This document shows positions 10,621 through 27,982 of a stretch of DNA of 32,000 nt, one piece after another; positions within the stretch are counted from its first letter, which is position 1, and each line of letters starts with the position of its first letter. Under the pieces are notes generated by a model. It ran no database searches and had not been told where the DNA came from. It worked only from the letters and a program-made list of their open reading frames with translations. Made by a program: the position numbers and the translations under genes. This DNA comes from an uncultured Thermoleophilaceae bacterium (GTDB lineage: Bacteria > Actinomycetota > Thermoleophilia > Solirubrobacterales > Thermoleophilaceae), in the NCBI GenBank assembly GCA_963746825.1, contig CAVVCU010000005.1, positions 742,446 to 774,445 of the forward strand, read 5' to 3'.

Positions 10621-10622
10621 GC

Positions 10623-11555: not shown

Positions 11556-11577
11556 GCTGGGCGGGCTGAAGAACCCC

Positions 11578-12591: not shown

Positions 12592-12594
12592 CTC

Positions 12595-12629: not shown

Positions 12630-12665
12630 ATGGGGGTGGCGGCGGCTCTCTAGCGTGGCGTGGCC

Positions 12666-13848
12666 ATGCGGGTCCTATTCGCCACCACAGCCAACGCGGG
12701 TCATTTCCGCCCGCTGGTTCCGTTCGCCGAGGCGTGTCTTGCGGCCGGCCACGATGTGCTGGTGGCGGGGCAGGCCGGCGCGGCCCCGGCGGCGCGGCGG
12801 GCGGGGCTTTCGTTTCGGCCGATCGCCGAGCCGAACGACGAGGCGCTCGCGCGGTTTCGGGCCGGCCAGGCGGGCCTGTCGGCGACGCAGGCGATGGGCC
12901 GCGCGCTGACCGACCTCTATATCGGCTTGTACGCGGGGGCGGCTCTCGAGGACATGCTCGCGGTGGTCGAGGAGTGGCGTCCTGACGTGGTGGTGCGCGA
13001 GAGCGCCGAGTTCTCAGCCCTGATCGCCGCGCAGCGCCTCGGTGTTCCCCACGCCCGGGTGGGCATCGGACTCTCCACGCAGCTCGAGACCAAGATGCTG
13101 GCGCTGGCGGGTCCGGCGCTCGACGAGCTTGCTGCCACGGTCGGAGTCAGCCCCGGTCTGGCGGGCCATGCCGCCCGGTCGCTCTGTCTCACCGTGGCCC
13201 CCGCGTCGCTGGACGGCACCGCTGCGCCTGACACCGAGCAGGTGCGGCGTTTTCGTCCTACCTCCGCCGGCCCCGCCGGTTCGCCGCCCAAGGGCTGGGG
13301 CGACCCGGCCGCGCCGCTGGTCTACCTGTCGTTCGGCACCGAGGTGCCCTCGCCCGAGCGCGACTACTTCCCCGGCGTCTACCGCGCCGCGGTGGATGCC
13401 CTGCAGGGGACGGGGGCGCGCGTGCTGGTCACCGTCGGCGACCAGCGCGATCCCGCCGACCTGGGCCCGCTGCCGGCGGCGGTGCGGGTGGAGCGCTGGG
13501 TGTCCCAGGCCGAGCTGATGCCACACACCGCGGTGATGGTCGGCGCACGGCGGCTCGGGCTCGGCGCTCAGCGCGCTGGCCGCCGGCGTTCCCATGGCCC
13601 TGGTGCCCTTCTTCGCCGACCAGCACTTCAACGCGGGTCGCTTGGCCGAGCTCGGCGCCGCCATTGCGCTTGGTGACGGACCCGCGTCCCTCCCTCAGCT
13701 CGAGGAGGCCGTGCTCGAGCTGCTGAGCGATGCGCGTTATCGCGACCGAGCGGGCGCAATCGCGGACGAGATCGAGACCCAAGCTCCGATCGAGCAAGCA
13801 CCAAACGCGCTGTCGGCACTGGCCGAACATCCGGTAACAGCCGCATAG
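12666..13848 (+). pseudogene. GT1-family (MGT/UDP-glycosyltransferase-like) glycosyltransferase interrupted by a +1 frameshift near 13545
   Basis: The N-terminal 290+ aa (MRVLFATTANAGHFRPLVPFAEA...) are in the frame of ORF 12660..13676. The conserved C-terminal half (HGGSGSALSALAAGVPMALVPFFADQHFNAGRLAELGAA...) continues in the frame of ORF 13594..13848. Reading GTC GGC g CAC GGC GGC TCG restores VGHGGSGS if one base around 13545 is removed. Confidence 0.7.
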
Positions 13849-13876
13849 CCCTCGCGGGAGGTGGCATGCTCGCGGG

Positions 13877-15322
13877 GTGACCCTTGTCGTGGCCAGCCGC
13901 GCGGATTTGACCATCGACGCGGTACGTCGGGTGGCGTGGGAGGGCGAGGGGGTCGGACTCGCTCCGGAGGTCATCGAGCAAATGGACCGCAGGCATGGTG
14001 AGTTCAACGACTATCTCGCCGCGTGCCTGGCCGAGGACCCCGGTGCGCTGCTCTACGGCGTCACGACCGGGCCGGGCGACGCGGGAGCTGCGGTGCTGTC
14101 CGACCGGGCCCTCGCCACCAGGCCGCGTGGGCTGTGGACCGCCGCATCGTTCGGGGAGCCGCTTCCCGAGCGGGTCGTGCGGGGGATCGTGCTCGCGCGC
14201 CTGGCCAACTTCGTGGAGGGCCACGCGGCGGCTCGGCCGCAGGTGGCCGCCGCGGTGGCCGCGATGCTCGACGCAGGGCCGCTTCCGGCCGTGCCCGCGC
14301 GGGGCAACGGCGGATCGGGCGAGATCCTCGCGCTCGGCCACCTGTTCGGGGAGGTGGCCGACCGGCTCGAGCTCGAGCCGAGGGAGAAGATGGCGTTGAT
14401 CAACGGATCGCCCTGCGCCGCCGCGATGGTGGCCGATGCCGCCCTCGCCGGACGGGGCCGACTCGAGCTCGCCGAGGCCACCTTCGCGTTGTCGGTCGAG
14501 GCCATCCGGGCGCCGCTGGAGGCGTTCGCGCCCGAGCTGGGGGACCTGTGGGGCAATGAACACGAGGCCGAGGCGTTGACGTCGTTCAGGTCACTGCTGG
14601 CGGGAGGCGCTCACGAGCGCCAGGCCCATCAGGCTCCGGTGAGCTATCGCGTTTTGCCGCGGGTGCTCGGCAGGCTCCGCGAGGCGCAGGCGCACGCTGA
14701 GCGGACCGCGACGGGCTCGCTGGGCTCGGTGACCGACAATCCGGTCTTCCTGGCGCCGAGCGAAGACCACCCGCTGGGCGCGCTGGTGTCGAACGGCGGC
14801 TACCACAACGATCGTGCCCATCCCGCGCTGGACGGACTGGCCCACGCCTGGGCGGACGTCGCGCAGCTCGCTCAGCGACACATCGACAAGCTCTTCCAGC
14901 ACCCGGTCAGCGCGCCGTTGCTGGCCGGCGAATGGCTGACCAAGCCGCTGCACATGGTGGGCGCGAGCTACGCCGAGGAGGCGCGAACGGCGGCGCAGAC
15001 CACCGTGCTCGGCCTGGGCGGCTTCGGCCAGAACGACCTCCCCTCTCCCGCCTTTCTCGCGTGGAACAAGGCGGACGCCGTCGGCACCTGCCTCGAGCGG
15101 ACACTCGCGGTGCTGGCCGCGCTCGCCTCGCAGGCTCTCCACGTCGCCGGCCAAACGCCACCGCCCGCGCTCGCACCGCTGCTGGATCAGGTGCGCCGCT
15201 CCTTTCCGCCCGTTGACTCGCCCCGCCAACTCGGCCCCGACGCCGAGCGCCTCGCCGCGGCGTTCAGCCGCCACGTGCAACCGGAGCGCGTTCAGCGCTT
15301 CGGCGGTAGCGAGCGTGCGTAG
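13877..15322 (+). CDS. Aromatic amino acid ammonia-lyase (HAL/PAL/aminomutase) family protein with a divergent MIO motif
   Basis: 481 aa, GTG start. Family landmarks: LYGVTTGPG (cf. YGxNTGFG), GNGGSGEILALGHL (cf. GSVGASGDLAPLSHL), SVTDNPVF, NGGYHN. Confidence 0.8.
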   Translation: MTLVVASRADLTIDAVRRVAWEGEGVGLAPEVIEQMDRRHGEFNDYLAACLAEDPGALLYGVTTGPGDAGAAVLSDRALATRPRGLWTAASFGEPLPERVVRGIVLARLANFVEGHAAARPQVAAAVAAMLDAGPLPAVPARGNGGSGEILALGHLFGEVADRLELEPREKMALINGSPCAAAMVADAALAGRGRLELAEATFALSVEAIRAPLEAFAPELGDLWGNEHEAEALTSFRSLLAGGAHERQAHQAPVSYRVLPRVLGRLREAQAHAERTATGSLGSVTDNPVFLAPSEDHPLGALVSNGGYHNDRAHPALDGLAHAWADVAQLAQRHIDKLFQHPVSAPLLAGEWLTKPLHMVGASYAEEARTAAQTTVLGLGGFGQNDLPSPAFLAWNKADAVGTCLERTLAVLAALASQALHVAGQTPPPALAPLLDQVRRSFPPVDSPRQLGPDAERLAAAFSRHVQPERVQRFGGSERA

Positions 15323-15918
15323 GCCACTCCCCGCTTGACCCACGGCTCCAGCTGGCGCTTCGTCCGCACTCCCTCCGGGTCCACGCGCAGCCAGCCCTGC
15401 ATCTCACGGCCCCGCATCTCGAACGGCCGCGCGTGTGGCTTCTCGACGAGCTTGTCCGTCTCCTCGTGCTCCACGCGCACCATCAGGCCGCCCTGACCGC
15501 TGACCGCGACAGACATGTTCCCGGCGATCAGAAAGGCCAGGCCGCCGAACATCCGCATCTCGGTGAGATCGGATTCGCCGGCGACCAGCTCGCGGATGCG
15601 GTTGGCCAGGTCCTCGTCGTACGCCATGGGCCCGACATGGTGGCTCAGGAATCGGCGCGGCGCAAGCGGGCTCGAGCCGCGTCGGTGCTCGATCACCGCG
15701 ACGACCTCGAAGTCGACGAGGTCATCCCATCGAGCGATCCATGCGTCCAAGAGCGCGCGGTCGTCGGCCTCCATGAGTTGGAAGCACCGGCTGAGCCCCT
15801 CGTCGACCCAGCTGTCCACGTACCTGAGGCCCTCGGGCAGCATGCGCCCTTGTGCCGCGGCCCGCTCGTACACCGGGGCCGCGCCCTGCGTGAATCGCTC
15901 GATGACCATGTACTGCAC
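15292..15918 (-). CDS. DUF3303-like / TfoX N-terminal-domain fusion protein (208 aa)
   Basis: The N-terminal ~78 aa MQYMVIERFTQGAAPVYERAAAQGRMLPEGLRYVDSWVDEGLSRCFQLME...DFEVVAV resemble the small stand-alone DUF3303 family. From the internal ATG at 15627, MAYDEDLANRIRELVAG...EMRMFGGLAFLIAGNMSVAV resembles TfoX_N proteins. There is no stop between them. GGAG lies 8 nt upstream of the GTG at 15918. Confidence 0.6.
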   Translation of the reverse strand: MQYMVIERFTQGAAPVYERAAAQGRMLPEGLRYVDSWVDEGLSRCFQLMEADDRALLDAWIARWDDLVDFEVVAVIEHRRGSSPLAPRRFLSHHVGPMAYDEDLANRIRELVAGESDLTEMRMFGGLAFLIAGNMSVAVSGQGGLMVRVEHEETDKLVEKPHARPFEMRGREMQGWLRVDPEGVRTKRQLEPWVKRGVAYARSLPPKR

Positions 15919-15985
15919 GGGCGTCTCCTGGGCCGTTCAGGCAGAGGGGACGGCAACCCTACGTCACGGCCGGGATCTTGACCGG

Positions 15986-17248
15986 CTAGGCGGGCAGCCA
16001 CGCTCCGTGCAGCCCGTACGGCACCCGCACCGGCAGGCGCAGCCGGGCCACGGGGCCGCCGGCGAGGTCGCCGGCATCGAGCAGCAGCAGCTCGGCCGCG
16101 TCGCGGGCGGTGTCGTGGACGAAGCCCGCCACGAGTGACTGGCCGTCCACCTCACCGAGCGAGACCATCTCGCCCCCGAAGCGCCCCGGTCCGAACTCGT
16201 GGTCCTGGCGCGCGCCGCTCTCCAGGTCGATCGCGGAGACCCCGCGCGCCACGGTGTAGTTGTCGCCGGTCGGGCGCGTCACCACGACACGCCGCCCGTC
16301 GGCGAGCAGGGTCGGGAAGTCGCACGGCTGGTCGTCGATGTCCGCCTCGACCACGCCGCCGTCGCGGGTGTCGATGCTCCAGCGCCGCAGCGAGCCCGGC
16401 GTGTCCTCGAAGGGGTTGTCCTCGCCCGCGGTCACGCCCGGGACGCGCCGGCGGCAGCCGACGACGTGCACGGTCGGTCCGTCGGACCACGCGGCGGCCA
16501 GGTGCGACACATGGGCGGGCGTCACGTCCGCCACCACCGCGCTGCAGCCGGTGCGGTCGGCCAGCGCTATCGCCGCGCCGGTCTCGGGCTCCCACTCGAC
16601 ACCACGCTCGTGGCGGCGCCACGGCAGGTCGAGCGTGACCACGCGTCCGTCGACCACGCGCAGGTCGTGCATGAACGGCCGCCGCTCGGTCGAGTACTCG
16701 CCGGTGGCGCGCCAGTGGCCGTCGTCACCTCGCTCGAGGAAGGTCAGCGCCGGGTCGTTCCATCGCGTTCCGACGGTCACCGGCCGTCCGTCGACCCGCG
16801 TCACGTGGGGCAGCACCATGTCGACCCCCGGCGCATCGACCACGTCGGGGCCGACCGTCTCCAGCGTGACCGGGTCCACGCGCCATGGGCGCCCGCTGTC
16901 GCTCAGGGCCAGCAGCCCGTCGGCGCCCAGGTCGGCGAGGCCGGCCGACGCCGGCTCCTCGGCCCGCCCGAACGCGGGCACCAGGTCGTCGAGCGACGGC
17001 GTGCGCACCCAGCGGTTGCCGTAGGTGGCGCGGCCGTCCTCGATCCGCACGGCGTGGACCATGCCCTGCCCGTCGACCCATACCCCGCCCACGCCTTGGC
17101 TCGCCGCGCGGTTGGGGCCGTTGCGCACATAGGTGCCCGCCAGCCCGGCGGGCAGGGTCCCCTGCACCTCGAGCTCGATCTCCACCCCGCCGGCCTCGGA
17201 GGCGACGGGCCGGTAGTTGGAGCGCAGGTCGGCGGTCGCGGTGCTCAT
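15986..17248 (-). CDS. Carotenoid cleavage oxygenase (RPE65/CCO) family non-heme iron dioxygenase, last gene of the RiPP operon
   Basis: 420 aa from ATG 17248, which overlaps the upstream ABC stop (ATGA, 17245..17248). Family motifs: VDGQGMVHAVRIEDGRATYGNRWVRT, and four candidate His-ligand contexts LPHVTRVDG, FMHDLRVV, VSHLAAAW, YGLHGAWL. The long track ORF (to 18826) is an out-of-frame shadow over the ABC gene. Confidence 0.85.
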   Translation of the reverse strand: MSTATADLRSNYRPVASEAGGVEIELEVQGTLPAGLAGTYVRNGPNRAASQGVGGVWVDGQGMVHAVRIEDGRATYGNRWVRTPSLDDLVPAFGRAEEPASAGLADLGADGLLALSDSGRPWRVDPVTLETVGPDVVDAPGVDMVLPHVTRVDGRPVTVGTRWNDPALTFLERGDDGHWRATGEYSTERRPFMHDLRVVDGRVVTLDLPWRRHERGVEWEPETGAAIALADRTGCSAVVADVTPAHVSHLAAAWSDGPTVHVVGCRRRVPGVTAGEDNPFEDTPGSLRRWSIDTRDGGVVEADIDDQPCDFPTLLADGRRVVVTRPTGDNYTVARGVSAIDLESGARQDHEFGPGRFGGEMVSLGEVDGQSLVAGFVHDTARDAAELLLLDAGDLAGGPVARLRLPVRVPYGLHGAWLPA

Positions 17249-20100
17249 GCCGTCTGCCTGCGCACCAGGTCGTCGAACAGGCCGGGCTCGGCGGCCAGGG
17301 TGTCGTAGGTCCCCTCCTGCACGATCCGCCCGTCGTCGATCACGTACAGGTAGTCGGCCCGGCGAATGGTGCTCAGGCGGTGGGCGATCACGATGCGGGT
17401 GGCGTCGAGGCCGTCGATCGCCCCCATCACGTCCTCCTGGGTCTCGTTGTCGAGCGCGCTCGTGGCCTCGTCGAGGAAGAGGATGCGAGGCCGGTGCGCG
17501 ATGGCGCGGGCGATCATCAGGCGCTGCACCTGCCCGCCCGAGAAGGTGACCCCGTTCTCGCCCACCAGCGTGTGCATCCCCATGGGCATGCGATGGATGT
17601 CGTCGGCCAGCCCGGCCTGCTCGGCGGCCCACCAGGCATCGTCCTCGGTGAGCGCGGAGTTGCCGATGATGTTGCTCTCGAGCGTGCCCGGCATCGGCTT
17701 GCTGTCCTGGAGTACGACGCCCACCTGGCGGCGCACCATTCGCATGTTCAGCGAGGCGAGGTTGCGCTCGTCGTAGACCACGCTGCCGCGATCCGGTGTC
17801 TCGAAGCCCAGCAGCATCCGCATCACCGTCGACTTGCCCGCCCCCGACGGCCCGACCAGCGCGACGTTCTGCCCCGGCTCGACGGTCAGGGTCACGCCCT
17901 GAAGCGTCGGCTGGGCGTCGGGCCCGTAGCGGAAGTGGACGTTCTCGAGGCGGATGCGCCCGGTGAGGAGGCCGGGGTCGCCGTCGGGCTCGTTTCGCTC
18001 CGGCACCGCCTCGAGCACGGGCCGAAGCCGCTCGTAGAGCGGGATCACCGTGATCGACGCCACCAGGGCGAAGCTCAGCTGCGTCGCGGCGACGGTGAAC
18101 TGGGCCAGGGCGGCGGCGAAGGCGACGAACGTGCCCGTGGCGATGTCGGCGTTCATCAGCCCGGCCACGACGGCGAACAGGATCATCGACAGGACCAGCG
18201 GGGTGCCCGCGATCGTGGTGGCCAGCGCGCAGTACACGAGCTGGCTGCGGTAGTTGGCGTCCTGCTGGCGGTGGAAGCGCTCGGCCCAGCGGGCGAAGGC
18301 CGGGATCTCGCGGCCGGCGATGCGGATCTTGTCGATTCCCTCGAGCAGCCCGAAGAGGACGCCGAAGATGTGTCCCTTCTCCAGGAACATCGTGCGCTGG
18401 TGGCGGACCTGGCGCACGCTGAGCCAGGCCAGCAGCGCCCCCACCGCCACCAGGCCGGCGACGGCGAACAGGGCGAGCAGCGGGCTGTAGACGAACAGCA
18501 GCGCCAGGCTGAAGCCGCCGAACATCGTGCTCAGCACCGCGGACACGGTGGCGTTGGAGAGGATCGCGTTGATCGAGTTGACGCCGTAGGCCCGCGACGT
18601 CAGGTCGCCGGTCGCGTAGCCCGCGTGGAAGCTCGCCGGCAGCGCCAGCAGCCGGTCCCAGACGCCCGCCTGAAGCACCCCGTCGAGGTTCCCCGACAGG
18701 CGTGCCACGGCGATGGCGCGCGCGTAGGCGAGGACGCCCCCCGACACCGCGGCGGCCAGCAGGAAGGCGGCGGTCCACCAGATCGCGGGGCGATCGTTGT
18801 CGGGGATGAACGCGTTGAACAGCCACTGGGTGCCGATCGGCAGCGCCAGCGCGAGCAGCCCGCCGGCCACGCCGGCCACGAGCAGCGAGAGCAGGGCGGC
18901 CTGCTGGTGGCGAAAGCCGATGCGCAGCAGGTCCTTCAGATCCAGCGGGCGGGCGGGAAGCGGCGCGTAGAGCTCAAAGCCCAGCGGGTCGAGCGCCGCG
19001 AGCAGGTCGGCGTCGACCCGGGACTCGGCGCCGGTGGCCGGGTCGTGACAGAGGTAGCCCCCGCGGGGCCGCGGCAGGAGCGCGACCGGGTCCCGCTCGG
19101 CGCCGCGAAAAGCCAGCACCGGGCTCGTGGCGCGCCGGTGCCAGCCGGAATCGAGCGAGACGCGGCGGTGGCGTACCCCCGCCGCCATGGCGATGGCCGA
19201 CACGGGGTCGGTGCCGCGGCGATAGGACGCGGGTGGGTCGACGAACTCCACGCCCAGCCAGGCCCCGATCCTGCGACAGGCGCTCAACGTGCGGTCGAAG
19301 CCGTCCTGCTCGGCAAGCGGTGGCGCGGCGGGCATGTCCCCGAGCGCGGACGCGATGTGGGTGATCGAGCGGGTGAGCAGCGCGGTGCCGCCCGCGCGCG
19401 CGGCGGCCAGGCGCGCGTCGGAGTCGCGGTCCAGTTGCTCGACCCTGGCCCGCGCGGCCGTGAGCAGCACCCGATGGGAGCCGCGAAGTGCCTCGAGGGT
19501 CGCCGCGGTGTCGCCCTGCGCGAGCGGGTCGGTCACCACCACGCGCGTCGCGCCGCGGGCGATCAGCCGCACGCCGGCGGCGAGGGGAATCGCGGCCGTT
19601 GAGTCGAGCGCGCCCAGCACATCGTTCCGCGGGCCGATCAGCTCGAGGCGTCCCGCCTGGACCGCCAGGGCGAGCCCGTCGGCGCGCAAGCGGACGATGT
19701 CGCCGTCGCCCAGCTCGTAGGCCCCGCCATCGGCGGCGTCCAGCACCCGGTCCGCCTCGCCGTCCTCGTCGAGCGTCCCGGCGAGCGCGGCAAGCCACGC
19801 GCCCAGCGCAGAGGCGTCGACCGTGGCCTCGGCCAGCTCGGTCCGGGGCTCGCCGACCGCGACGACCGTGTGGCCGTCGGGCACGTCGGCGGGGTCGAGC
19901 GGGGCCACGCACGCGCCGGGCGCGGCCCGCAGCAGGAAGTGGCGCCGGCCGCCCGGCTCCGCGAGCGTGCCCGGCTGGAGGAAGACGTTGAGCGCGCCGG
20001 CCTTGACCAGCTGGACCCGCTCGGTCGCCTCGAGGGCAAAGGGGTTCGTGGCGTCGAAGGCCTCGGTGCGGGCCTCGCCGTGGGCGTCGGAGACGGTCAC
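17245..20100 (-). CDS. ABC exporter (permease + ATPase) with ~390-aa non-peptidase N-terminal region; NHLM-system second transporter type
   Basis: 951 aa from GTG 20100 (GTGA overlap with the upstream ABC stop). Six-TM region, Walker A GPSGAGKST, signature FSGGQVQRLMIARAI, Walker B ILFLDEATSALD. The N-terminus has beta-rich repeats and a degenerate C39-like segment (LSACRRIGAWLG ... SPVLAF). Confidence 0.85.
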   Translation of the reverse strand: MTVSDAHGEARTEAFDATNPFALEATERVQLVKAGALNVFLQPGTLAEPGGRRHFLLRAAPGACVAPLDPADVPDGHTVVAVGEPRTELAEATVDASALGAWLAALAGTLDEDGEADRVLDAADGGAYELGDGDIVRLRADGLALAVQAGRLELIGPRNDVLGALDSTAAIPLAAGVRLIARGATRVVVTDPLAQGDTAATLEALRGSHRVLLTAARARVEQLDRDSDARLAAARAGGTALLTRSITHIASALGDMPAAPPLAEQDGFDRTLSACRRIGAWLGVEFVDPPASYRRGTDPVSAIAMAAGVRHRRVSLDSGWHRRATSPVLAFRGAERDPVALLPRPRGGYLCHDPATGAESRVDADLLAALDPLGFELYAPLPARPLDLKDLLRIGFRHQQAALLSLLVAGVAGGLLALALPIGTQWLFNAFIPDNDRPAIWWTAAFLLAAAVSGGVLAYARAIAVARLSGNLDGVLQAGVWDRLLALPASFHAGYATGDLTSRAYGVNSINAILSNATVSAVLSTMFGGFSLALLFVYSPLLALFAVAGLVAVGALLAWLSVRQVRHQRTMFLEKGHIFGVLFGLLEGIDKIRIAGREIPAFARWAERFHRQQDANYRSQLVYCALATTIAGTPLVLSMILFAVVAGLMNADIATGTFVAFAAALAQFTVAATQLSFALVASITVIPLYERLRPVLEAVPERNEPDGDPGLLTGRIRLENVHFRYGPDAQPTLQGVTLTVEPGQNVALVGPSGAGKSTVMRMLLGFETPDRGSVVYDERNLASLNMRMVRRQVGVVLQDSKPMPGTLESNIIGNSALTEDDAWWAAEQAGLADDIHRMPMGMHTLVGENGVTFSGGQVQRLMIARAIAHRPRILFLDEATSALDNETQEDVMGAIDGLDATRIVIAHRLSTIRRADYLYVIDDGRIVQEGTYDTLAAEPGLFDDLVRRQTA

Positions 20101-22286
20101 TGAGCGCCCACCAGCTCGGCGTAGCGCCCGTCGGCGGCCATCAGGTCGTCGTGGGTGCCGCGCTCGGACACCTTGCCCTGGTCGAGCACGATGATCTCGT
20201 CGCAGTCGCGGATCGTGCTCAGGCGGTGGGCGATGATCAGGCACGTGCAGCCGCGGCGGCGGAGGTTGAGGTCGATGGCCAGCTCGGTCTGGGTGTCGAG
20301 CGCGCTGGTGGCCTCGTCGAGCACCAGCACCGACGGCTCCAGGGCGAGTGCGCGGGCGATCTCGAGTCGCTGGCGCTGGCCGCCGCTGAAGTCGCGCCCG
20401 TCCTCGGCCACGCTGCTCTCGAGCGCTCCCGGGCGCTGCATGATCACCGGCCGGATGCAGGCGTCCTCGGTGGCCCGTTCGACGACCTGGCGGTCGACCG
20501 ACTCGTCCCAGAGCGTGAGGTTCTGGGCCACCGTGCCGGAGAACAGGCGGATGTCCTGATCGACCGAGGCCACCGAGCCCGTGATCACGTCGCGCGGCAG
20601 CTGGGTGCGGTCCACCCCGTCGAGCAGCACCTGGCCCTCCCACGGCTCGTAGAGGCCGAGCACGAGCTTCCCGACCGTCGACTTGCCGCTGCCGGTCGAG
20701 CCCACGAGCGCCACGCGCTGCCCGGGCGCCAGCCGCAGCGAGAAGGACTCGAGCAGCGGGGCCTGGTGGCGCCCGTAGCCGAAGGTCACGTCACGCAGCT
20801 CGACGAATCCCTCCAGCCTGCGCGCGCGATCCGCGGACGCTCCGTTGGCCTCCGCCGGGCGGGCGGGATCGCCGATGCCCGCCAGGTGAGGATCGATGTC
20901 GTAGTCGAGCACGTCCTGGACCTGGGCCAGGTTGGCGCGCGCCGTCTGCAGCTGGGTGGCCAGGGCGACGAGGTTCGAGATCGGCAGGAGAAAGGAGGCC
21001 ATCAGCGTCGTGAAGGCCACGAGCGCCCCGACAGTGAGCTGGCCCTCGGTTACCAGCAGAGCGCCTCCGACGAGCACCACGGCACTGCTGAAGGCCGACA
21101 GCGTGGCGGGTGTTGCCGTGAGCGTGGCGGTCAGCCCGCCGACCGACTGCGAAGCGTTGACCGCGTGCGTCTGGAAGCCGGCCCAGCGGGCGAAGTACTC
21201 GTCCTCGGCGCCGGTGGCCTTGATCGACTCGATGATCCCGAGGCCGCCGAAGGCCACCCCGTCGAGGCGCACCTGCTCGTGCTGGAGCAGGTTGTTGGCA
21301 TCGATGCGCCGGCGGGCGACGAGCTGGAGCGCGACGAAGTTGAGCAGCCCGATGCCGATGCCGATCAGCGTCAGCGTCACGCTGTAGTGGAACATCACCA
21401 CCACGTAGAGGACGAGGGTGATCAGCCCGATGAAGGCCGTTGCGAGCTGGCCGGAGAGCAGCTGAGCGATGTCGTCGTTGAGCTGCACGCGCGTGACCAC
21501 GCCGCCCACGAAGCGCTGGGCGAAGAACTCGCTGGGCAGGCGGAGCAGGTGCCAGAGGAAGCGGCTCGAGGTACGAAGCGTGAGCCCGATCTGGAGCCGC
21601 ACCAGCGCCAGCTGCTGCACGTAGGTGAGCGCCAGCAGGAGAGCGAGGGTGAAGGTCATGGCGCCCAGGAGCGGCCAGACCGAGTCCGACGAATCCGGAA
21701 TCAGCACCTCGTCGATGAACAGCTGGGAGAACAACGCCGCGAGGATCGTCGGCACGGCCAGGGCCACCCCCGCGATCACGGCAGCGAGCAACCCCAGCCG
21801 CGAGCCGTCGAGTATGCGCCAGAGCGACCGCGTGAAGGTCGAGCGCCGGCCGCCCCGCTCGAACTCGGCCGTGGGCTCGAAGGTGAGGACGATGCCGGAG
21901 TAGGCGTCGGCGAACTCCTGGAAGCTGATCTTGCGGCGGCCGATCGCGGGGTCGGCCAGTTCGATCGTGTCGCCGTGAATGCGCGTCAACACGACGAAGT
22001 GGCTCGCGTTGAGGTACACGATCGCCGGTAGCCGCACGTCGGCCAGCTCCTGCTCGGTCTTGCGGTATCCGTGCGCGTCGAGCCCGTACGAGCGCGCCGC
22101 CGCCAGCAGCGCGGCCGCGCTGGCCCCGTCGCGCGAGACGCCGCAGTCGGCGCGCAGCCGCTCGAGGGCCACGAAGCGGCCGTGGGCGCCGAGCACCATC
22201 GCCAGCGACGCCGCACCACACTCCGCCTCCTCCATCTGGAGCACCACCGGCACGCGGCTGGCCGGGATGTCGTGCTCCCGTTTCAC
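20097..22286 (-). CDS. Peptidase C39-domain bacteriocin ABC exporter (leader-cleaving, double-glycine type)
   Basis: 729 aa, GTG start 22286 (GTGA overlap with the HlyD stop). C39 motifs QMEEAECGAASLAMVLG (Gln/Cys) and NASHFVVL (His). Walker A GSTGSGKST, signature FSGGQRQRLEIARAL, Walker B VLVLDEATSALD. Confidence 0.9.
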   Translation of the reverse strand: MKREHDIPASRVPVVLQMEEAECGAASLAMVLGAHGRFVALERLRADCGVSRDGASAAALLAAARSYGLDAHGYRKTEQELADVRLPAIVYLNASHFVVLTRIHGDTIELADPAIGRRKISFQEFADAYSGIVLTFEPTAEFERGGRRSTFTRSLWRILDGSRLGLLAAVIAGVALAVPTILAALFSQLFIDEVLIPDSSDSVWPLLGAMTFTLALLLALTYVQQLALVRLQIGLTLRTSSRFLWHLLRLPSEFFAQRFVGGVVTRVQLNDDIAQLLSGQLATAFIGLITLVLYVVVMFHYSVTLTLIGIGIGLLNFVALQLVARRRIDANNLLQHEQVRLDGVAFGGLGIIESIKATGAEDEYFARWAGFQTHAVNASQSVGGLTATLTATPATLSAFSSAVVLVGGALLVTEGQLTVGALVAFTTLMASFLLPISNLVALATQLQTARANLAQVQDVLDYDIDPHLAGIGDPARPAEANGASADRARRLEGFVELRDVTFGYGRHQAPLLESFSLRLAPGQRVALVGSTGSGKSTVGKLVLGLYEPWEGQVLLDGVDRTQLPRDVITGSVASVDQDIRLFSGTVAQNLTLWDESVDRQVVERATEDACIRPVIMQRPGALESSVAEDGRDFSGGQRQRLEIARALALEPSVLVLDEATSALDTQTELAIDLNLRRRGCTCLIIAHRLSTIRDCDEIIVLDQGKVSERGTHDDLMAADGRYAELVGAQ

Positions 22287-23092
22287 GGGAAGACCTGGTC
22301 GAGTACCGATCCCTCCGACACGACGATGCTGGCCTCGGTCAGCTGGCCGGCCGAAATCGAGGCGTCCGACCCGCTCGGCGTGGACCAGGCCAGGCCTCCG
22401 GGCCCCGACGGGTCGGAGCGCAGCTTGATCTCAACCAGGTAGACGGCCTGCGAGCGAGCAACCTCGTTGATCACGCGCTCGCCGCCGAAGATGCGCTCCA
22501 GCTCGGCGTCGCCGGCCGGATAGGGGTCGATGTCGGCCACCTTGCCGTGGGCGTAGCCGAGCTCGGCGCCGCCCACGCTGTCCGGGCGCACCTGCACCGG
22601 CGCACCCACGTAGATCTCCGAGCGCCGGTCGACCGGCACCACGACGTTCGCGGCCAGCGCCCCGCCGGTCGGCTCGAGTGAGAAGAGCCGCTCGCCGGTG
22701 GTCACCACCGCCCCGGTGCTCGCCACGGCGTCGACCACGCGTCCGTCGATCGGTGAGCGGAGGACCGTGGGCGTGCCGTCGGCCCCCGTGATGGTGGCCA
22801 GCGCCTGGCCCTTCCGTACGCGCGCGTCGATGTTTGCCTGGAGCGCCGTCACGCGGCCGGCGGCCGGCGCCTGCACGACGCTCGGGCCCTCGCCGCGCTG
22901 CAGGATGCCGCGGCTCGGCACGGTCTCGCGCACGGTGGCGAAGAAGCCCCACGCGACCGCGAGGCCCACGAGGACGAGGAGCGCGGCGAGCACGATCCAC
23001 AGCCGTGGGCGGATGAGGGTGAGCAGGCGGTCGAGCTGGTCCGGCGAAACGGGGCCGCGGCCTGCGGGGGCGTCGACGGGCTCGGCGGTCAT
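22283..23092 (-). CDS. HlyD-family secretion adaptor, short form (NHLM-system secretion protein type)
   Basis: 269 aa from ATG 23092 (ATGA overlap with the SagB stop). N-terminal anchor LWIVLAALLVLVGLAVAWGFFA, then barrel-sandwich/lipoyl-like strands (VVQAPAAGRVTALQANIDARVRKGQALATI ... LRSPIDGRVVDAVASTGAVVTTGERLFSL). There is no long coiled-coil hairpin. Confidence 0.8.
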   Translation of the reverse strand: MTAEPVDAPAGRGPVSPDQLDRLLTLIRPRLWIVLAALLVLVGLAVAWGFFATVRETVPSRGILQRGEGPSVVQAPAAGRVTALQANIDARVRKGQALATITGADGTPTVLRSPIDGRVVDAVASTGAVVTTGERLFSLEPTGGALAANVVVPVDRRSEIYVGAPVQVRPDSVGGAELGYAHGKVADIDPYPAGDAELERIFGGERVINEVARSQAVYLVEIKLRSDPSGPGGLAWSTPSGSDASISAGQLTEASIVVSEGSVLDQVFP

Positions 23093-24423: not shown

Positions 24424-26708
24424 GGGTTCAGGTCCTCCTCGGGGACGGGACGCTCGAGCCAGCCGAGCGCGACGGGGACGTCGTAGAGCCGCCCGGCGCC
24501 GAGCCGCGACCACATGTGGCGCAGCCCCGGTGCGACGGCCTTCACCACCGGCAACCCGATGTCCGGGCGCGTCTGGTCGAGCAGGTACAGCGGCACCCCG
24601 GCCTCGGCAATGCGCTCCGTGCAGGTGGTGAGCTCGGTCAGCAGGTCGGGATCGGACCGGTCGGGCATCTCGGCGATCGAGCGCGACGGGCCCGGAGCGG
24701 GCGCCAGGTAGGCGTGCTCCTCGAGCCGGGCGCAGCTCCACCAGCGGGAGGCCGCCTCGTCGAAGGTGACGTAGCGGTCCTCACCGGCGTCACCCCACCG
24801 CTCGAAGCTGGCCAGAAACTGGACCAGCTCGGAGAGGGCGCGCACCACGGCTCCGGCAGGGTCGATGTGGGCTCCGAAGCCGAATACCAGCTCCTCGTCG
24901 GAGCCCCGTCGGCGGCTGGCGGCGCACACCACCGGGATGCCGAGGTCGTTGGTGAGGTCGATCGCCCACACCTCGCGGCCGAGCTGGTCGAGGCGGTTGA
25001 CGAGTCGCTCGACGTAGGGGTCGGTGACCGAGGCGAGGTCGATGCCGGGCCGCTGCACGCGGTTGTACCACCAGATTCCGACCGCGTCCCGCTCGATCAG
25101 CTCGAGCACCCCCTGCAGGGCCGCGTCCTCCAGTGACGAGCCGGCGGCGTGGCCGTTCGAGTCGGCCAGGAAGTAGAGCTCCGAAGCGCTTCGGTAGCCG
25201 TGGTAGCTCGCGTAGTTGAAGTAGCACATGCCCGCCGGCAGCAGGCGGCGAGTGCCGTCGACCGGCGACCACATCGGGCTCCAGTCGATCTCCGCGTCGA
25301 CGTCGAAGGGCTCGGGGACGAGCTGGGACGAAATGGTATGGATGCGGCCGGCCTCGTTGAGCGCCTCGCGCTCGCGGTACTGGCGCTCGCTGAAGCCCAT
25401 CACGTCGTTGGGGTGGATGGCCTCCTCCAGCTCGGAGTAGCGGCCCCGAACATTGGCCTCGTCGCCGCGGTACACGCCCGAGTAGCGCTCGAGCGCCTCG
25501 CAGATGGCGCCGACGCGCGCGTCCGCGTCGGTCGGGCCCTTGCCGCCCGAGCGAACCCTGAGGCTCCGGCGCAAGAAGGCGAGGCCGTCGTACTGGACGG
25601 CGAAGTTGTGACCCGCCGTGTAGGCGTGGATCACTCCCTCCTGGTCGGCGAACACGCTGTCGACCGACTTGACCGCACCGGTGATCGGGCTGACGTGGGT
25701 GCCCACGCGCTCGAGGGTGGCCTCGACGCTCGCCGCGCGGTGCAGGCGGTTGCCGGCCGAGGGCCGGCTGCTGAGCACGGGAGCCGAGAAGCCGCGGTCC
25801 GCGACCATTCCGGGGTCGCCGCATGCCGGGCATTGGGGGCGCCGGATCAGCGCGTGCCGCGCGACCTCGAGGGTGCGGGTGTCGATCGTGAGCAAAGTGC
25901 CCTCGAGCGGCCGGGCGGCGGTGCCCCCGGCGACGTTGCGCAGCTGCTGTGCGGCCAGGGCGGCGGCGAGCCGTTCGGCCGCGGGATCCTGTGCGCGGCC
26001 GACCGGGCTCTCGATCGGTGCGCCGCGCTGCTGAGACAGATACGACTCGACGGCCCGGTTGCCCTGAAGGCGCTCGGCCAGGCAGTGCCAGCAGCCGGTT
26101 TGCCCGGGCACCAGCAGTGGGCCGAGCCAGATCGTGGCGCCCACCGGCTTGAGCAGCAGCCAGGGCTCGCCCGCGGCCCGCTGGCGCTCGTCCACCGCGG
26201 CCAGCTCGGAAGTGAGGTAGTCGGCGGTGGCGACCGCCGTGAGCGTGCCCTCCGCGCCCGGAGCACCGAGCAGCCCGGCGGCGTCGAGCGCCTCGTCGAG
26301 CACGGTGGGGTCGATGTCGCCGAGGGTCGTGGCGCGCACACCGGTGGCCGCGACCCGCGGCTCCGCGTCATCGGCGCTCACCCCCGCCAGCGCCCAGTAG
26401 GCGCGCTGGCCGTCGGAGACGCCGGCGTCGCCCGCGGTCTCCAGGTAGCCCTTCGCGGTCATGGTTTCGAGCACGTGGTAGGTCTCGAGGGGCGTGAAGC
26501 GGTCGGCCAATGCCTCCGCGAGGTCGTCGGCGCTTCGCGTGCCATCGACCAGCTCACCCAGCGCGCGGTGGATGGGCTCGCTCAGCACCTTCGAGCCGTC
26601 CTCGGAGAGCAGGAAGACCCCGACCCCGTCCACGCGCTCCACCGAGAAGCGCGGATCGAAGCGCACCGCGGTGCTGCCCGTTGCGAGGGGAGGCGAAAGG
26701 GTGCTCAT
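24405..26708 (-). CDS. Fused TOMM cyclodehydratase: E1/ThiF-like docking (C-protein) domain + YcaO (D-protein) domain
   Basis: 767 aa, ATG 26708 (ATGA overlap with the LLM stop). N-terminal winged-helix-like segment (VLSEPIHRALGELVDGTRSADDLAEAL). The E1-like region ends in RRPQCPACGDP. The C-terminal half is a YcaO/SagD-type domain (GKGPTDADARVGAICEALERYSG ... NGHAAGSSLEDAALQGVLELIERDAV ... PVVKAVAPGL). Confidence 0.9.
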   Translation of the reverse strand: MSTLSPPLATGSTAVRFDPRFSVERVDGVGVFLLSEDGSKVLSEPIHRALGELVDGTRSADDLAEALADRFTPLETYHVLETMTAKGYLETAGDAGVSDGQRAYWALAGVSADDAEPRVAATGVRATTLGDIDPTVLDEALDAAGLLGAPGAEGTLTAVATADYLTSELAAVDERQRAAGEPWLLLKPVGATIWLGPLLVPGQTGCWHCLAERLQGNRAVESYLSQQRGAPIESPVGRAQDPAAERLAAALAAQQLRNVAGGTAARPLEGTLLTIDTRTLEVARHALIRRPQCPACGDPGMVADRGFSAPVLSSRPSAGNRLHRAASVEATLERVGTHVSPITGAVKSVDSVFADQEGVIHAYTAGHNFAVQYDGLAFLRRSLRVRSGGKGPTDADARVGAICEALERYSGVYRGDEANVRGRYSELEEAIHPNDVMGFSERQYREREALNEAGRIHTISSQLVPEPFDVDAEIDWSPMWSPVDGTRRLLPAGMCYFNYASYHGYRSASELYFLADSNGHAAGSSLEDAALQGVLELIERDAVGIWWYNRVQRPGIDLASVTDPYVERLVNRLDQLGREVWAIDLTNDLGIPVVCAASRRRGSDEELVFGFGAHIDPAGAVVRALSELVQFLASFERWGDAGEDRYVTFDEAASRWWSCARLEEHAYLAPAPGPSRSIAEMPDRSDPDLLTELTTCTERIAEAGVPLYLLDQTRPDIGLPVVKAVAPGLRHMWSRLGAGRLYDVPVALGWLERPVPEEDLNPWAVFF

Positions 26709-27982
26709 CGGCCGGCCGCCTCGAGGGAGACCATCTCGTCCGGGCTCCAGCCGTCGACCAGGTCGAACTCCGGCATCACCTCGGAGGCGAAGAGCTCGAG
26801 CTGGGCGATCAGCAGGTCGTCGTCCACGAGCCCCCAGGGCAGGTGCCAGACGAAGTACTCGATCCCGGCCTCGACGATGGCCTCCATGCGGCGCTTCACG
26901 TCGTCCAGGAGCCCGCCGATGACCATGCCCGAGCTCAGCAGCCGCCCGCCCACGGTCTCACCCGGGCCAGGGACCGGTCCGGTCTCGCCGGGGTGGCGCA
27001 GGGTCTCGAGAAAGCCGAAGTTGCGGTACCAGTCGGTCCAGATCGCGCGGTTGTGGTTGCGGGTCATCTCGTCCAGCTGGCTGCGATCGCGACAGATCTG
27101 GACGCTGCGGACGATGCCGGTCTGCTCGCCGGGGGCGAGCTCGCGCCCCACGCTCGCTGCCACCTCGCGGTAGCCGCGGGCCAGGCGAAACACGGTCTCG
27201 TCCGGCGTGGCGAGCATGGTCGGGATCAGGCCCTCGCGCGCTGCCCAGTCGACCGTCTTGGCGCTGGTCGAGTTGGCCTGGAACACCGGCGGGTGGGGCT
27301 GCTGGAAGGGCCGCGGCACCACGCTCACGCCGACGACCGTGCCGTTCTCGTCGACCTCGCCGGGCGTGCCGTATTGGCGGGTGAAGTCGGCCGGCGGCCA
27401 GTTCTGGATGCCCTCGTCGTAGGGGTAGGGCACCTCGTAGTGCTCGCCCTTGTACTGCAGCAGGTCGTCCGTCCACGCGGCCTTGAGGATGCGGAAGTGC
27501 TCGGCGAAGAGCCGGCGGTTGCGGGCATCGGCTTCCTCGTCGCCGAGGGACGCGGCCCTGTTTCCCATGTGCTGGCCGAGCACGTCGACCCAGCGGCGCT
27601 GATACCCGCGGGCAAGGCCGACGAAGAACCGGCCCCCCAGCATGTGGTCGATCATCGAGCAGCGCTCGGCGAGCCGGATGGGATCGTGAGTCGGCAGCAC
27701 GAAGCCGAGCTGTCCATGGCGCAGCCGGGTGGTCCGGCTGCCCAGATGGAGGTTGTACAGCCCGGGGTCGGGCGAGAGCTCGAGGCCCTCGGAGTGGAAA
27801 TGGTGCTCGGTATGGGAGAGGCCCCAGTAGCCGAGCTCGTCCAGGGTGATGGCGAGCCCCTCGAGGCTCGTGAGCATCTCCTGGAATACCTCGTTGTTGC
27901 GTCCAATGGGACGCCGCTCGAGGTCGGCGGCCGGATCGCCCGCCGACGGGTGGACCTGAATGATGACTTTGGTCTTAGCCAC
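26705..27982 (-). CDS. Luciferase-like monooxygenase (LLM) class flavin/F420-dependent oxidoreductase
   Basis: 425 aa, GTG 27982, 30 nt downstream of the precursor stop. LLM landmarks: LGYWGLSHTEHHF, RLRHGQLGFVLPTHDPIRLAERCSMIDHMLGGRFFVGLARGY, and a C-terminal TIM-barrel region. The cofactor (FMN versus F420) cannot be told from sequence by eye. Confidence 0.85.
   Translation of the reverse strand: MAKTKVIIQVHPSAGDPAADLERRPIGRNNEVFQEMLTSLEGLAITLDELGYWGLSHTEHHFHSEGLELSPDPGLYNLHLGSRTTRLRHGQLGFVLPTHDPIRLAERCSMIDHMLGGRFFVGLARGYQRRWVDVLGQHMGNRAASLGDEEADARNRRLFAEHFRILKAAWTDDLLQYKGEHYEVPYPYDEGIQNWPPADFTRQYGTPGEVDENGTVVGVSVVPRPFQQPHPPVFQANSTSAKTVDWAAREGLIPTMLATPDETVFRLARGYREVAASVGRELAPGEQTGIVRSVQICRDRSQLDEMTRNHNRAIWTDWYRNFGFLETLRHPGETGPVPGPGETVGGRLLSSGMVIGGLLDDVKRRMEAIVEAGIEYFVWHLPWGLVDDDLLIAQLELFASEVMPEFDLVDGWSPDEMVSLEAAGR

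What the first reader, a model, noticed from the sequence alone, without database searches (positions are those of the whole stretch)
15986..17248. Carotenoid-cleavage-oxygenase family enzyme whose start overlaps the RiPP exporter stop
The 420-aa RPE65/CCO-family ORF starts with an ATG that overlaps the stop of the second ABC exporter (ATGA at 17245..17248). This argues that it is co-transcribed, and probably co-translated, with the operon rather than being a chance neighbour. By eye, all four His iron-ligand contexts are present (LPHVTRVDG, FMHDLRVV, VSHLAAAW, YGLHGAWL), so it is probably catalytically competent. It is shorter than the roughly 480-500 aa I recall for typical bacterial members. 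CCO enzymes cleave C=C bonds of carotenoids or stilbenoids. I know of no characterised role in peptide natural-product maturation. It may act on the polyazole, on a dehydro-residue, or on an unrelated small molecule.
Basis: partly seen in the sequence, partly recalled or inferred. Interest (0 to 1): 0.7.

Follow-up and report, generated by a model that had tools for sequence, protein, structure and literature searches.

The report
Carotenoid-oxygenase-like enzyme in thiazole-peptide operon
A shortened relative of the iron enzymes that cut carotenoid and stilbene double bonds is the fixed last gene of a ribosomal thiazole-peptide operon in uncultured soil actinobacteria, so it probably has a peptide-related job that has not been described for this enzyme family.

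Summary
ORF 15986..17248(-) encodes a 420-aa protein that matches Pfam RPE65 end to end (E 3e-59). Its ATG overlaps the TGA of the NHLP exporter subunit ABC2 (ATGA, 17245-17248). The AlphaFold2 model (pLDDT 88, pTM 0.90) superposes on ACO, LsdA, NOV1 and NdCCD at TM 0.84-0.86. H148, H194, H249 and H414 fall in invariant His columns.

It is not a chance neighbour. It ends an eight-gene, translationally coupled operon: NHLP precursor, LLM, E1-like/YcaO, SagB, HlyD, ABC1, ABC2, CCO. Eleven related loci keep the ABC2-then-CCO order. Ten of them keep an [AG]TGA overlap, although downstream genes differ and one cluster is rearranged. Among 1.84 billion representatives the clade has two 50% clusters (730 and 570 bits; next 224). 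CCOs outside it lack NHLP neighbours. dN/dS matches the core genes.

The clade has lost about 50 cap or loop residues. It also carries small residues near the iron (Thr to Ala102, Trp to Ser116, Phe to Ser248, two Glu to Asp).

The most likely role is O2-dependent tailoring of the polythiazole peptide. The substrate and reaction are untested. No paper in the library links this family to RiPPs.

The parts
15986..17248 (-). CCO/RPE65-family gene, 420 aa plus stop. Predicted Fe ligands: H148 (16805-16807), H194 (16667-16669), H249 (16502-16504), H414 (16007-16009). Second sphere: A102, D117, D310, E360.
17245..17248 (-). ATGA overlap of the ABC2 stop codon with the CCO start codon
   Evidence: an [AG]TGA overlap is kept in 10 related loci
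17245..20100 (-). NHLP bacteriocin export ABC transporter permease/ATPase (ABC2), 951 aa. The GTG start overlaps the ABC1 stop (GTGA).
   Evidence: TIGR03797 792.7 bits against cutoff 709.4; start codon; 100% match to P0070
20097..22286 (-). NHLP export ABC transporter with a C39 peptidase domain (ABC1), 729 aa
   Evidence: TIGR03796 948.8 bits against cutoff 853.3; Peptidase_C39
22283..23092 (-). HlyD-like NHLP secretion adaptor, about 269 aa. Its ATG overlaps the SagB stop (ATGA).
   Evidence: TIGR03794 157.2 bits against cutoff 156.2; start codon
23089..24423 (-). SagB-type azoline dehydrogenase, about 444 aa. Its GTG start lies 19 nt inside the YcaO gene.
   Evidence: TIGR03605 114.7 bits against cutoff 78.4; start codon; the same 19-nt overlap is seen in L029
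24405..26708 (-). Fused leader-binding (E1-like/wHTH) and YcaO cyclodehydratase, 767 aa
   Evidence: PF02624 311.6 bits; TIGR03604 and TIGR03882 both above cutoff
26705..27982 (-). Luciferase-like monooxygenase (LLM), 425 aa. It is conserved together with the CCO, and its stop overlaps the YcaO start (ATGA).
   Evidence: PF00296 101.3 bits; junction; present in L001, L009, L010, L013, L029, L031 and L032
28013..28345 (-). NHLP-leader precursor peptide, 110 aa. The predicted cleavage is ...ELSDSELEGVAGA|GCACCCCCTGAASDEIL.
   Evidence: TIGR03793 48.5 bits against cutoff 50.9; coordinates; family alignment; cleavage logo from PMC2887384

Best explanation
The ORF encodes a soluble, cap-trimmed member of the 4-His Fe(II) carotenoid/stilbene cleavage oxygenase superfamily. 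It has been recruited as a dedicated component of an NHLP-leader, YcaO/SagB polythiazole (linear azole peptide) pathway in Thermoleophilaceae-type actinobacteria.

Shown here:
- It is the last gene of an eight-gene operon in which six of the seven junctions are overlapping start/stop codons (a 30-nt gap follows the precursor gene).
- It travels with that operon across lineages.
- It keeps the metal ligands.
- It evolves under the same constraint as the core genes.

Inferred:
- It is made together with the exporter from the same transcript.
- It acts in the cytoplasm, because it has no signal peptide or hydrophobic segment.
- It acts on the leader-bearing peptide after azole formation.
- It uses O2 to cleave a C=C bond in, or conjugated with, the contiguous thiazole/(methyl)oxazole run of the core GC[A/S/C/T]CCCC(C)TGAASDEIL.
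- The enlarged, small-residue pocket and the loss of a long inter-strand segment and several loops are adaptations to a bulky, water-soluble peptide substrate instead of a membrane-dissolved polyene.
- The resulting carbonyl may be processed further by the co-conserved luciferase-like monooxygenase.
For: Family, fold and ligands.

Operon packing: ATGA or GTGA overlaps, or a 19-nt overlap, at six of the seven junctions.

Synteny: the order ABC2 then CCO is kept in L001/L011, L002, L003-L006, L007, L009, L010, L013, L017 and L029. In these loci CCO identity runs from 95% down to about 46-48% and ABC2 identity down to 53%. Downstream genes differ (cytochrome bd, GntR, HicAB, SpoU, DUF3303/TfoX). 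In L029 the 5' end is rearranged, with the LLM ahead of the precursor.

Exclusivity: an exhaustive HMM search found only two 50%-identity representatives in the clade (730 and 570 bits), and the next hit scores 224 bits. Eight CCOs outside the clade have no NHLP genes nearby. The nearest NHLP ABC2 relatives outside the clade (41-44% identity) have no CCO and no YcaO.

Selection: CCO dN/dS is 0.12-0.35, against 0.08-0.28 for ABC1, ABC2 and YcaO.

Soluble character: pI 4.9, GRAVY -0.25, and no hydrophobic 19-mer.

Clade-specific changes: the segment 83-100 is 17 aa shorter, and there are four further loop deletions. Substitutions are T136(ACO) to A102, W149 to S/G116, Phe/Tyr/Trp to S248, Asn to A/T252, and E150 and E370 to Asp.

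Precursor: the core, including its tail, is conserved across the family.
Against: There is no biochemical evidence of any kind. The substrate, product and metal content are unknown.

No alkene is obvious in the predicted product. There is no dehydratase, so no Dha or Dhb, and azole C4=C5 bonds are aromatic.

The protein has no RiPP recognition element. In bacteriocin operons, a position after the exporter genes is typical of immunity genes rather than tailoring genes.

The second-sphere changes (occluding Thr to Ala, two Glu to Asp) could weaken or alter canonical reactivity. The T151G change in CAO1 lowers efficiency about 135-fold (PMC12051055).

All loci come from a narrow group of uncultured MAGs or metagenomes, so part of the synteny reflects shared ancestry.

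The His geometry and the tunnel were therefore not inspected, and the His1 alignment is ambiguous in HMMER.
Confidence: 0.5

Rival explanations
1. Self-protection. The CCO oxidatively inactivates, or sequesters, mature leaderless polyazole that stays in or re-enters the producer's cytoplasm. It would act alongside the exporter as an immunity function.
For: The gene is the last in the operon, directly coupled to the exporter subunits. That is the usual place for bacteriocin immunity genes such as mcbEFG (established knowledge). The protein is cytoplasmic and soluble. No other immunity candidate is present in the operon. The metal site is conserved.
Against: Degrading one's own product is costly. 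No CCO is known to act as an immunity factor. The co-conserved LLM is easier to explain as a partner in tailoring. Sequestration alone would not require four invariant His plus E360.
Confidence: 0.18
2. Small-molecule enzyme. The CCO cleaves a carotenoid, apocarotenoid or aromatic alkene and not the peptide. It may supply an aldehyde that is attached to the peptide or used as a signal, or its function may be unrelated and it simply rides on the operon's promoter.
For: All characterised CCOs act on small lipophilic alkenes (PMC12051055). The best NCBIfam hit is an apocarotenoid dioxygenase model. An aromatic amino-acid lyase gene lies nearby at 13877-15322.
Against: NCBIfam scores are far below the equivalog cutoffs: 149 against 675, and 63 against 800. 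Part of the region where canonical enzymes carry their membrane-binding surface is deleted, and the protein has no hydrophobic stretch. Lys134 of stilbene cleavers is Ser or Gly here. The lyase neighbourhood is shared only with the 95%-identical locus L009. The clade is never seen outside this operon.
Confidence: 0.15
3. Non-oxygenase chemistry or a structural role. Like RPE65, the iron centre could act as a Lewis acid, for example in hydrolysis or isomerisation on the peptide. Alternatively, the propeller could serve as a docking or chaperone partner for the exporter.
For: RPE65 shows that this fold supports non-redox catalysis (established knowledge). The second sphere is altered (A102, D117, D310). 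The gene is coupled to ABC2.
Against: There is no specific resemblance to RPE65; the top structural matches are oxygenases. A purely structural role would not keep all four His and E360 down to 48% identity.
Confidence: 0.1
4. Chance neighbour that happens to abut the operon.
For: 4-bp overlaps are common in compact, high-GC genomes.
Against: The same junction and partner recur in 10 other loci with unrelated downstream genes and with a rearranged 5' end. The clade is absent elsewhere.
Confidence: 0.02

Closest known systems
Synechocystis apocarotenoid-15,15'-oxygenase (ACO; PDB 2BIW and mutants 5KK0, 5KJA, 5KJB)
   Same: This is the best structural match: Foldseek E about 1e-27 to 1e-25, TMq 0.83-0.84. 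It shares the seven-bladed propeller, and His183/238/304/484 correspond to H148/H194/H249/H414. The Glu that aligns with E360 (taken as Glu426 from memory of the ACO structure) is retained.
   Different: Sequence identity is only 23-24%. The query is about 70 aa shorter; relative to its 45 nearest homologues the shortfall is concentrated in segment 83-100 and four loops. T136 becomes A102, W149 becomes S116, E150 becomes D117, and the Glu before the F-P motif becomes D310. There is no hydrophobic patch. The genomic context is a RiPP operon rather than retinoid metabolism.
Lignostilbene/resveratrol dioxygenases (LsdA 6OJR/6OJW, NOV1 5J53, CAO1 5U8X)
   Same: Same fold, TMq 0.82-0.86. They have a 4-His site, are soluble bacterial or fungal enzymes, and act on aromatic-conjugated alkenes.
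   Different: Identity is 19-22%. The NCBIfam LSD equivalog scores are 58-63 bits against cutoffs of 650-800. The Lys that precedes the second-sphere Glu (Lys134, which binds the phenolate) is Ser or Gly here. The occluding Thr, invariant in this clade of enzymes (PMC12051055), is Ala.
9-cis-epoxycarotenoid dioxygenase VP14 (PDB 3NPE)
   Same: It is the one known CCO subfamily with Ala at the iron-occluding position (PMC12051055), as in A102. TMq is 0.83.
   Different: VP14 is a plant plastid enzyme of 529+ aa with a full helical cap and a carotenoid substrate. Identity is 23%.
NHLP-leader TOMM/LAP systems (Haft et al. 2010, PMC2887384; Cox et al. 2015, PMC4603692)
   Same: The surrounding operon has the defining set: an NHLP-type precursor with a Gly-Gly-type cleavage logo, a fused cyclodehydratase, a SagB dehydrogenase, and the TIGR03794/03796/03797 export trio.
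   Different: Neither paper mentions a carotenoid oxygenase, a dioxygenase or a luciferase-like enzyme. Here both an LLM and a CCO are fixed extra members. The core, normally hypervariable, is conserved including a C-terminal TGAASDEIL tail.

Membership tests
Carotenoid cleavage oxygenase superfamily (Pfam PF03055 RPE65) | Full-length sequence match above the curated threshold | tested here: met
   201.7 bits against cutoff 27; profile positions 2-469 of 469
Carotenoid cleavage oxygenase superfamily (Pfam PF03055 RPE65) | Seven-bladed beta-propeller fold | tested here: met
   AF2 model with pLDDT 88.2 and pTM 0.90, almost all beta. Foldseek TMq 0.81-0.86 to ACO, LsdA, NOV1, NdCCD, VP14, CAO1 and NinaB.
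Carotenoid cleavage oxygenase superfamily (Pfam PF03055 RPE65) | Four His iron ligands | tested here: met
   H148, H194, H249 and H414 are invariant in 55 of 55 aligned sequences. The His1 register is ambiguous in HMMER pairwise alignments but is supported by the anchor spacing and P0009. The 3D geometry was not inspected.
Carotenoid cleavage oxygenase superfamily (Pfam PF03055 RPE65) | Three second-sphere Glu hydrogen-bonded to the His ligands | tested here: inconclusive
   E360 is retained in 55 of 55 sequences. The ACO E150 position is D117 (9 of 10 in the clade, Thr in one member). The Glu before the F-P motif is D310 (10 of 10). The acidic character is kept but the side chains are shorter.
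Carotenoid cleavage oxygenase superfamily (Pfam PF03055 RPE65) | Occluding Thr/Val/Ile that enforces five-coordinate Fe(II) (PMC12051055) | tested here: not met
   A102 in 10 of 10 clade members, against Thr/Ile/Val in 43 of 45 others. Ala also occurs naturally in NCEDs.
Carotenoid cleavage oxygenase superfamily (Pfam PF03055 RPE65) | Helical cap with a hydrophobic, membrane-facing patch at the tunnel entrance | tested here: not met
   Segment 83-100 is 17 aa shorter than the median of other CCOs, and four other loops are 4-9 aa shorter. The model has only three helices of 4-5 residues. The maximum 19-residue hydropathy is 1.07.
Carotenoid cleavage oxygenase superfamily (Pfam PF03055 RPE65) | O2-dependent cleavage of a conjugated C=C bond | not testable with these tools
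   Requires an enzyme assay.
Characterised CCO subfamilies (NCBIfam equivalogs NF052295 apocarotenoid 13,14-dioxygenase; NF053778 and NF053780 lignostilbene dioxygenases) | Score above the equivalog cutoff | tested here: not met
   149.3 against 675; 63.0 against 800; 58.4 against 650
Stilbene-cleaving CCOs (LsdA/NOV1/CAO1) | Phenolate-binding Lys134 next to the second-sphere Glu, and an invariant occluding Thr | tested here: not met
   S/G116 and A102. The position of Lys134 is from memory of the LsdA/NOV1 literature; Tyr101 was not tested.
NHLP-leader TOMM / linear azole peptide system (the surrounding operon) | Export trio TIGR03794, TIGR03796 and TIGR03797 | tested here: met
   157.2 against 156.2; 948.8 against 853.3; 792.7 against 709.4
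NHLP-leader TOMM / linear azole peptide system (the surrounding operon) | YcaO cyclodehydratase with a leader-binding domain, plus a SagB dehydrogenase | tested here: met
   TIGR03604 263.3 against 219.25; TIGR03882 141.4 against 36.9; TIGR03605 114.7 against 78.4
NHLP-leader TOMM / linear azole peptide system (the surrounding operon) | NHLP-type precursor with a Gly-Gly-type cleavage motif and a Cys/Ser/Thr-rich core | tested here: inconclusive
   TIGR03793 scores 48.5 against cutoff 50.9, and Pfam NHase_alpha scores 26.8 against 27.2. Both are just under their cutoffs. However, ELSDSELEGVAGA fits the published 13-residue logo at every specified position except the last, where Ala takes the place of the second Gly, and the core has six Cys.

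The most novel reading that the evidence does not exclude
This would be the first carotenoid-cleavage-oxygenase-family enzyme whose natural substrate is a ribosomal peptide. It would oxidatively open or cleave an azole, or a bond conjugated to the polythiazole run. One example is cleavage at the Thr-derived methyloxazole, which would release the conserved GAASDEIL tail. That would define a new RiPP tailoring reaction and a new substrate class for 4-His iron dioxygenases, possibly working in tandem with the co-conserved luciferase-like monooxygenase.
Probability: 0.4. Interest if true: 0.85.

Novelty: new variant of a known kind. Interest (0 to 1): 0.68.

Why it matters
CCOs are known only as cleavers of carotenoids, stilbenoids and related small alkenes. 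RiPP tailoring chemistry has no member of this superfamily. A CCO locked into a thiazole-peptide operon would extend the chemistry of 4-His iron enzymes to peptide-borne heteroaromatic systems. It would also add a new tool to RiPP engineering and point to an unknown natural product from a poorly studied, uncultured actinobacterial family. The natural variants at the occluding and second-sphere positions (Ala102, Asp117, Asp310), together with a trimmed cap, also give a ready-made test of current models of how CCOs control O2 reactivity and select substrates. The hypothesis can be tested directly with synthetic genes.

Tried and rejected
- **His geometry and tunnel.** I wanted to inspect these in the AF2 model, but coordinates are not exposed in /data. 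Only Foldseek summaries were usable.
- **ACO second-sphere mutant paper** (doi 10.1074/jbc.M116.744912). The paper is not held, so PMC12051055 was used instead.
- **Promoter and terminator scan of 15200-17800.** It found no sites on either strand, against about 0.1-0.3 expected. This is uninformative for an actinobacterium.
- **Metagenome scan with the clade profile.** It added only one clade member (L017). The other 11 hits were generic CCOs.
- **The nearby aromatic amino-acid lyase and glycosyltransferase genes** (12660-15322, + strand) as possible suppliers of a phenylpropanoid substrate. I rejected this because that neighbourhood is shared only with the 95%-identical locus L009 and is absent from all other clade loci.
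- **The downstream DUF3303/TfoX_N gene** (15292-15918) as a possible operon member. I rejected it for the same reason.
- **Dha or Dhb as the alkene substrate.** I rejected this because no lanthipeptide-type dehydratase is present in any locus.
- **Other short CCOs in natural-product clusters.** P0018 (Streptomyces) and P0025 sit next to TetR/MFS and PadR genes, not RiPP genes.
Full report
**Observation**

The window has about 71% G+C. ORF 15986..17248 on the minus strand translates to 420 residues. The minus-strand sequence around its start is GACGGCATGAGCACC. The ATG (17248-17246) therefore shares ATGA with the TGA stop (17247-17245) of the upstream gene. Third-position GC shows coding in this frame only below about 17250, even though the frame stays open much further upstream. 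Pfam RPE65 matches end to end at 201.7 bits (E 3.2e-59, profile 2-469 of 469). The upstream gene is the NHLP export subunit TIGR03797, at 792.7 bits against a cutoff of 709.4.

**The operon**

Reading the minus strand from 28345 to 15986 gives the following genes:

| Gene | Coordinates |
|---|---|
| NHLP-leader precursor, 110 aa | 28013-28345 |
| Luciferase-like monooxygenase (LLM) | 26705-27982 |
| Fused leader-binding/YcaO cyclodehydratase | 24405-26708 |
| SagB dehydrogenase | 23089-24423 |
| HlyD-like adaptor | 22283-23092 |
| C39-peptidase ABC exporter (ABC1) | 20097-22286 |
| Second ABC subunit (ABC2) | 17245-20100 |
| CCO | 15986-17248 |

After the precursor, which is followed by a 30-nt gap before the LLM gene, all six junctions overlap. 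They are ATGA, a 19-nt overlap, ATGA, GTGA, GTGA and ATGA. The sequence ELSDSELEGVAGA in the precursor fits the published 13-residue NHLP cleavage logo. That logo has acidic residues at positions 1, 4 and 6, Leu at 2 and 7, Ser at 3, Val at 10, and Gly-Gly at 12-13 (PMC2887384); here positions 12-13 are Gly-Ala. This predicts the core GCACCCCCTGAASDEIL. Genes outside this block look unrelated. They include a hybrid histidine kinase, DnaE, a nitronate monooxygenase, TetR, PhyH, an ADH, a GNAT, a glycosyltransferase, an aromatic amino-acid lyase and a DUF3303/TfoX_N protein.

**Chance neighbour or operon member**

A word-indexed search found nine 90%-identity cluster representatives at 48-94% identity and 373-429 aa. 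Identity then drops abruptly to 33% or less. An exhaustive HMM search of 1.84 billion 50%-identity representatives found only two in the clade, at 730 and 570 bits. The next hit scored 224 bits.

In every locus that includes upstream DNA, the CCO follows the ABC2 orthologue directly. These loci are L001/L011, L002, L003-L006, L007, L009, L010, L013, L017 and L029. Ten of these junctions read ATGA or GTGA. Downstream genes differ between loci: cytochrome bd, GntR, hypothetical genes with HicAB, and SpoU. The window's DUF3303/TfoX gene is shared only with the 95%-identical L009.

L029 comes from a MAG labelled Acidimicrobiia. Its LLM sits ahead of the precursor, its ABC2 is only 53% identical, and its CCO (401 aa) is about 46-48% identical. 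The ATGA junction is still kept.

The converse also holds. The nearest NHLP ABC2 proteins outside the lineage, at 41-44% identity in Thermoanaerobaculia and Streptomyces, have neither a CCO nor a YcaO. Eight CCOs outside the clade have no NHLP genes nearby.

Pairwise dN/dS for the CCO is 0.12-0.35. This matches ABC1, ABC2 and YcaO at 0.08-0.28. Named genome hits are uncultured Thermoleophilaceae MAGs. The gene is therefore a fixed, selected component of this operon.

**The protein**

AlphaFold2 with a 55-sequence alignment gives pLDDT 88.2 and pTM 0.90, and the model is almost entirely beta. Foldseek places it on ACO, LsdA, P. brassicacearum LSD, NdCCD, NOV1, VP14, CAO1 and NinaB. TM-scores are 0.81-0.86 normalised to the query and 0.67-0.79 normalised to the larger targets.

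H148, H194, H249, H414 and E360 are invariant in 55 of 55 sequences. There is one caveat. HMMER pairwise alignments pair P147 with the Pro of AHPK, which puts H148 two residues off. Against this, the His lies 15 residues after the L-E/Q-T-V/I-G anchor in the query, in P0010 and in plant CCD1 alike. P0009 also aligns His to His without a gap on its downstream side. I therefore accept H148 as the ligand, with a two-residue deletion after it.

Aligned to ACO, the clade shows these differences:

- A102 replaces the iron-occluding T136 in 10 of 10 members.
- S/G116 replaces W149.
- D117 replaces E150 in 9 of 10 members.
- D310 replaces the Glu before the F-P motif.
- S248 replaces the aromatic residue before His3.
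- A/T252 replaces the Asn three residues after His3.

The occluding Thr/Val/Ile enforces five-coordinate Fe(II), and T151G in CAO1 costs about 135-fold in efficiency. NCEDs naturally carry Ala at this position (PMC12051055).

The roughly 50 missing residues are concentrated in a few segments. Segment 83-100 is 17 residues shorter, and from memory of ACO and RPE65 structures this is the region where canonical enzymes carry helical, membrane-facing cap elements. Segment 209-219 is 7 shorter, 326-341 is 9 shorter, 267-289 is 4 shorter and 360-379 is 4 shorter. The N-terminal segment is also about 9 residues shorter. The protein is acidic (pI 4.9) and hydrophilic, with no hydrophobic stretch or signal peptide. 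NCBIfam equivalog models for apocarotenoid and lignostilbene dioxygenases score far below their cutoffs.

**Mechanism**

Shown: co-transcription is very likely, and the junction is arranged for translational coupling. The protein has the CCO fold and the metal ligands, and it is under purifying selection.

Inferred: it is an active O2-dependent enzyme that works in the cytoplasm on the YcaO/SagB-modified, leader-bearing peptide before the C39 exporter removes the leader. A contiguous run of five or six thiazoles plus a possible methyloxazole is a flat, conjugated, hydrophobic rod. Its dimensions are comparable to those of an apocarotenoid. The smaller residues around the iron and the trimmed cap would suit such a rod attached to a soluble peptide.

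The conserved TGAASDEIL tail and the co-conserved LLM hint at a two-step oxidative edit near the azole/tail boundary. The LLM's nearest solved relatives are FMN-dependent aldehyde and ketone monooxygenases, but the similarity is weak. This remains speculation.

Rival explanations are listed with their confidences. They are an immunity or degradation role, a small-molecule substrate, non-redox chemistry as in RPE65, and chance adjacency, which is effectively excluded.

**What is known already**

Five full-text searches combined carotenoid cleavage/oxygenase or PF03055 with RiPP, YcaO, NHLP, precursor peptide or biosynthetic gene cluster. None returned a relevant paper. The NHLP founding paper and the TOMM landscape survey mention no carotenoid oxygenase, dioxygenase or luciferase-like enzyme. 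Public annotation calls clade members 'carotenoid oxygenase family protein' and says nothing more.

**Verdict**

This is a real, ordinary-looking gene in an unusual, conserved context. It is a divergent, cap-trimmed CCO subfamily dedicated to a polythiazole RiPP pathway. I classify it as a new variant of a known kind. Its function is unproven but directly testable.

Noticed in passing
window 28013-28345 (-); alignment A3: The NHLP precursor family has an unusually conserved core. C[A/S/C/T]CCCC(C)TGAASDEIL is nearly identical across about 15 cluster representatives at 69-99% identity, including the acidic C-terminal tail. NHLP cores are described as hypervariable. The logo-based cleavage site leaves an N-terminal Gly, so the first thiazole would be an aminomethyl-thiazole.
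   Followed up: partly
window 26705-27982 (-); L029 8631-9899: A divergent luciferase-like monooxygenase is co-conserved with the CCO in every locus that reaches that far. In L029 it has moved upstream of the precursor. Its nearest solved relatives are bacterial luciferase (alkanal monooxygenase) and diketocamphane monooxygenase, matched only over about 100 N-terminal residues (E about 1e-13).
   Followed up: partly
L029 (GCA_036558745.1, contig DATBEZ010000013.1): The most divergent copy of the whole cluster sits in a MAG labelled Acidimicrobiia, whereas the others are labelled Thermoleophilaceae. This could be horizontal transfer between actinobacterial classes or a binning/classification error.
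   Followed up: no
window 17245-20100 (-), N-terminal ~270 aa of ABC2: The N-terminal ~270 residues of ABC2 lie upstream of the TIGR03797 match, and the first ~400 residues have no Pfam hit. The region is conserved in orthologues, including L029 at 53% overall identity.
   Followed up: no
window 15292-15322: The aromatic amino-acid lyase gene (13877-15322, +) and the DUF3303/TfoX_N fusion gene (15292-15918, -) converge, and their 3' ends overlap by 31 bp.
   Followed up: no
window CCO residues R47, R190, R197 (about 17108-17110, 16679-16681, 16658-16660): Three Arg residues are invariant or nearly invariant in the clade. They replace Pro, Pro and Ala of canonical CCOs (RNGPNP becomes RNGPNR; HDFAIT becomes HDLRVV). 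They might contact the acidic SDEIL tail of the core, but their orientation could not be checked without coordinates.
   Followed up: no
L013 (ENA ERZ25039595 contig_77094): This locus has the complete cluster including the CCO, but most genes are split into fragments and the ABC2-CCO junction is gapped. This looks like frameshift errors in a long-read assembly rather than decay.
   Followed up: no
P0069 (precursor homologue, 122 aa): One precursor variant keeps the leader up to GVAGA and then has an unrelated tail, DEQAFDISGAPFFRHMKNADPRFYRLRRE. It sits on a 696-bp contig and is probably a frameshift or an assembly artefact.
   Followed up: no
window 7743-13676 (+): A run of same-strand genes (TetR, PhyH-type dioxygenase, zinc ADH, GNAT, a PMP-repeat protein, an EryCIII-like glycosyltransferase) precedes the aromatic lyase. 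It may be a separate small-molecule locus. It is shared with L009 only.
   Followed up: partly
L015/L016 (Streptomyces coeruleoprunus) 6585-6797 and 13082-13294: An NHLP-type export trio without YcaO or CCO is flanked on both sides by 70-aa ORFs, which are possible precursor peptides of a different class.
   Followed up: no
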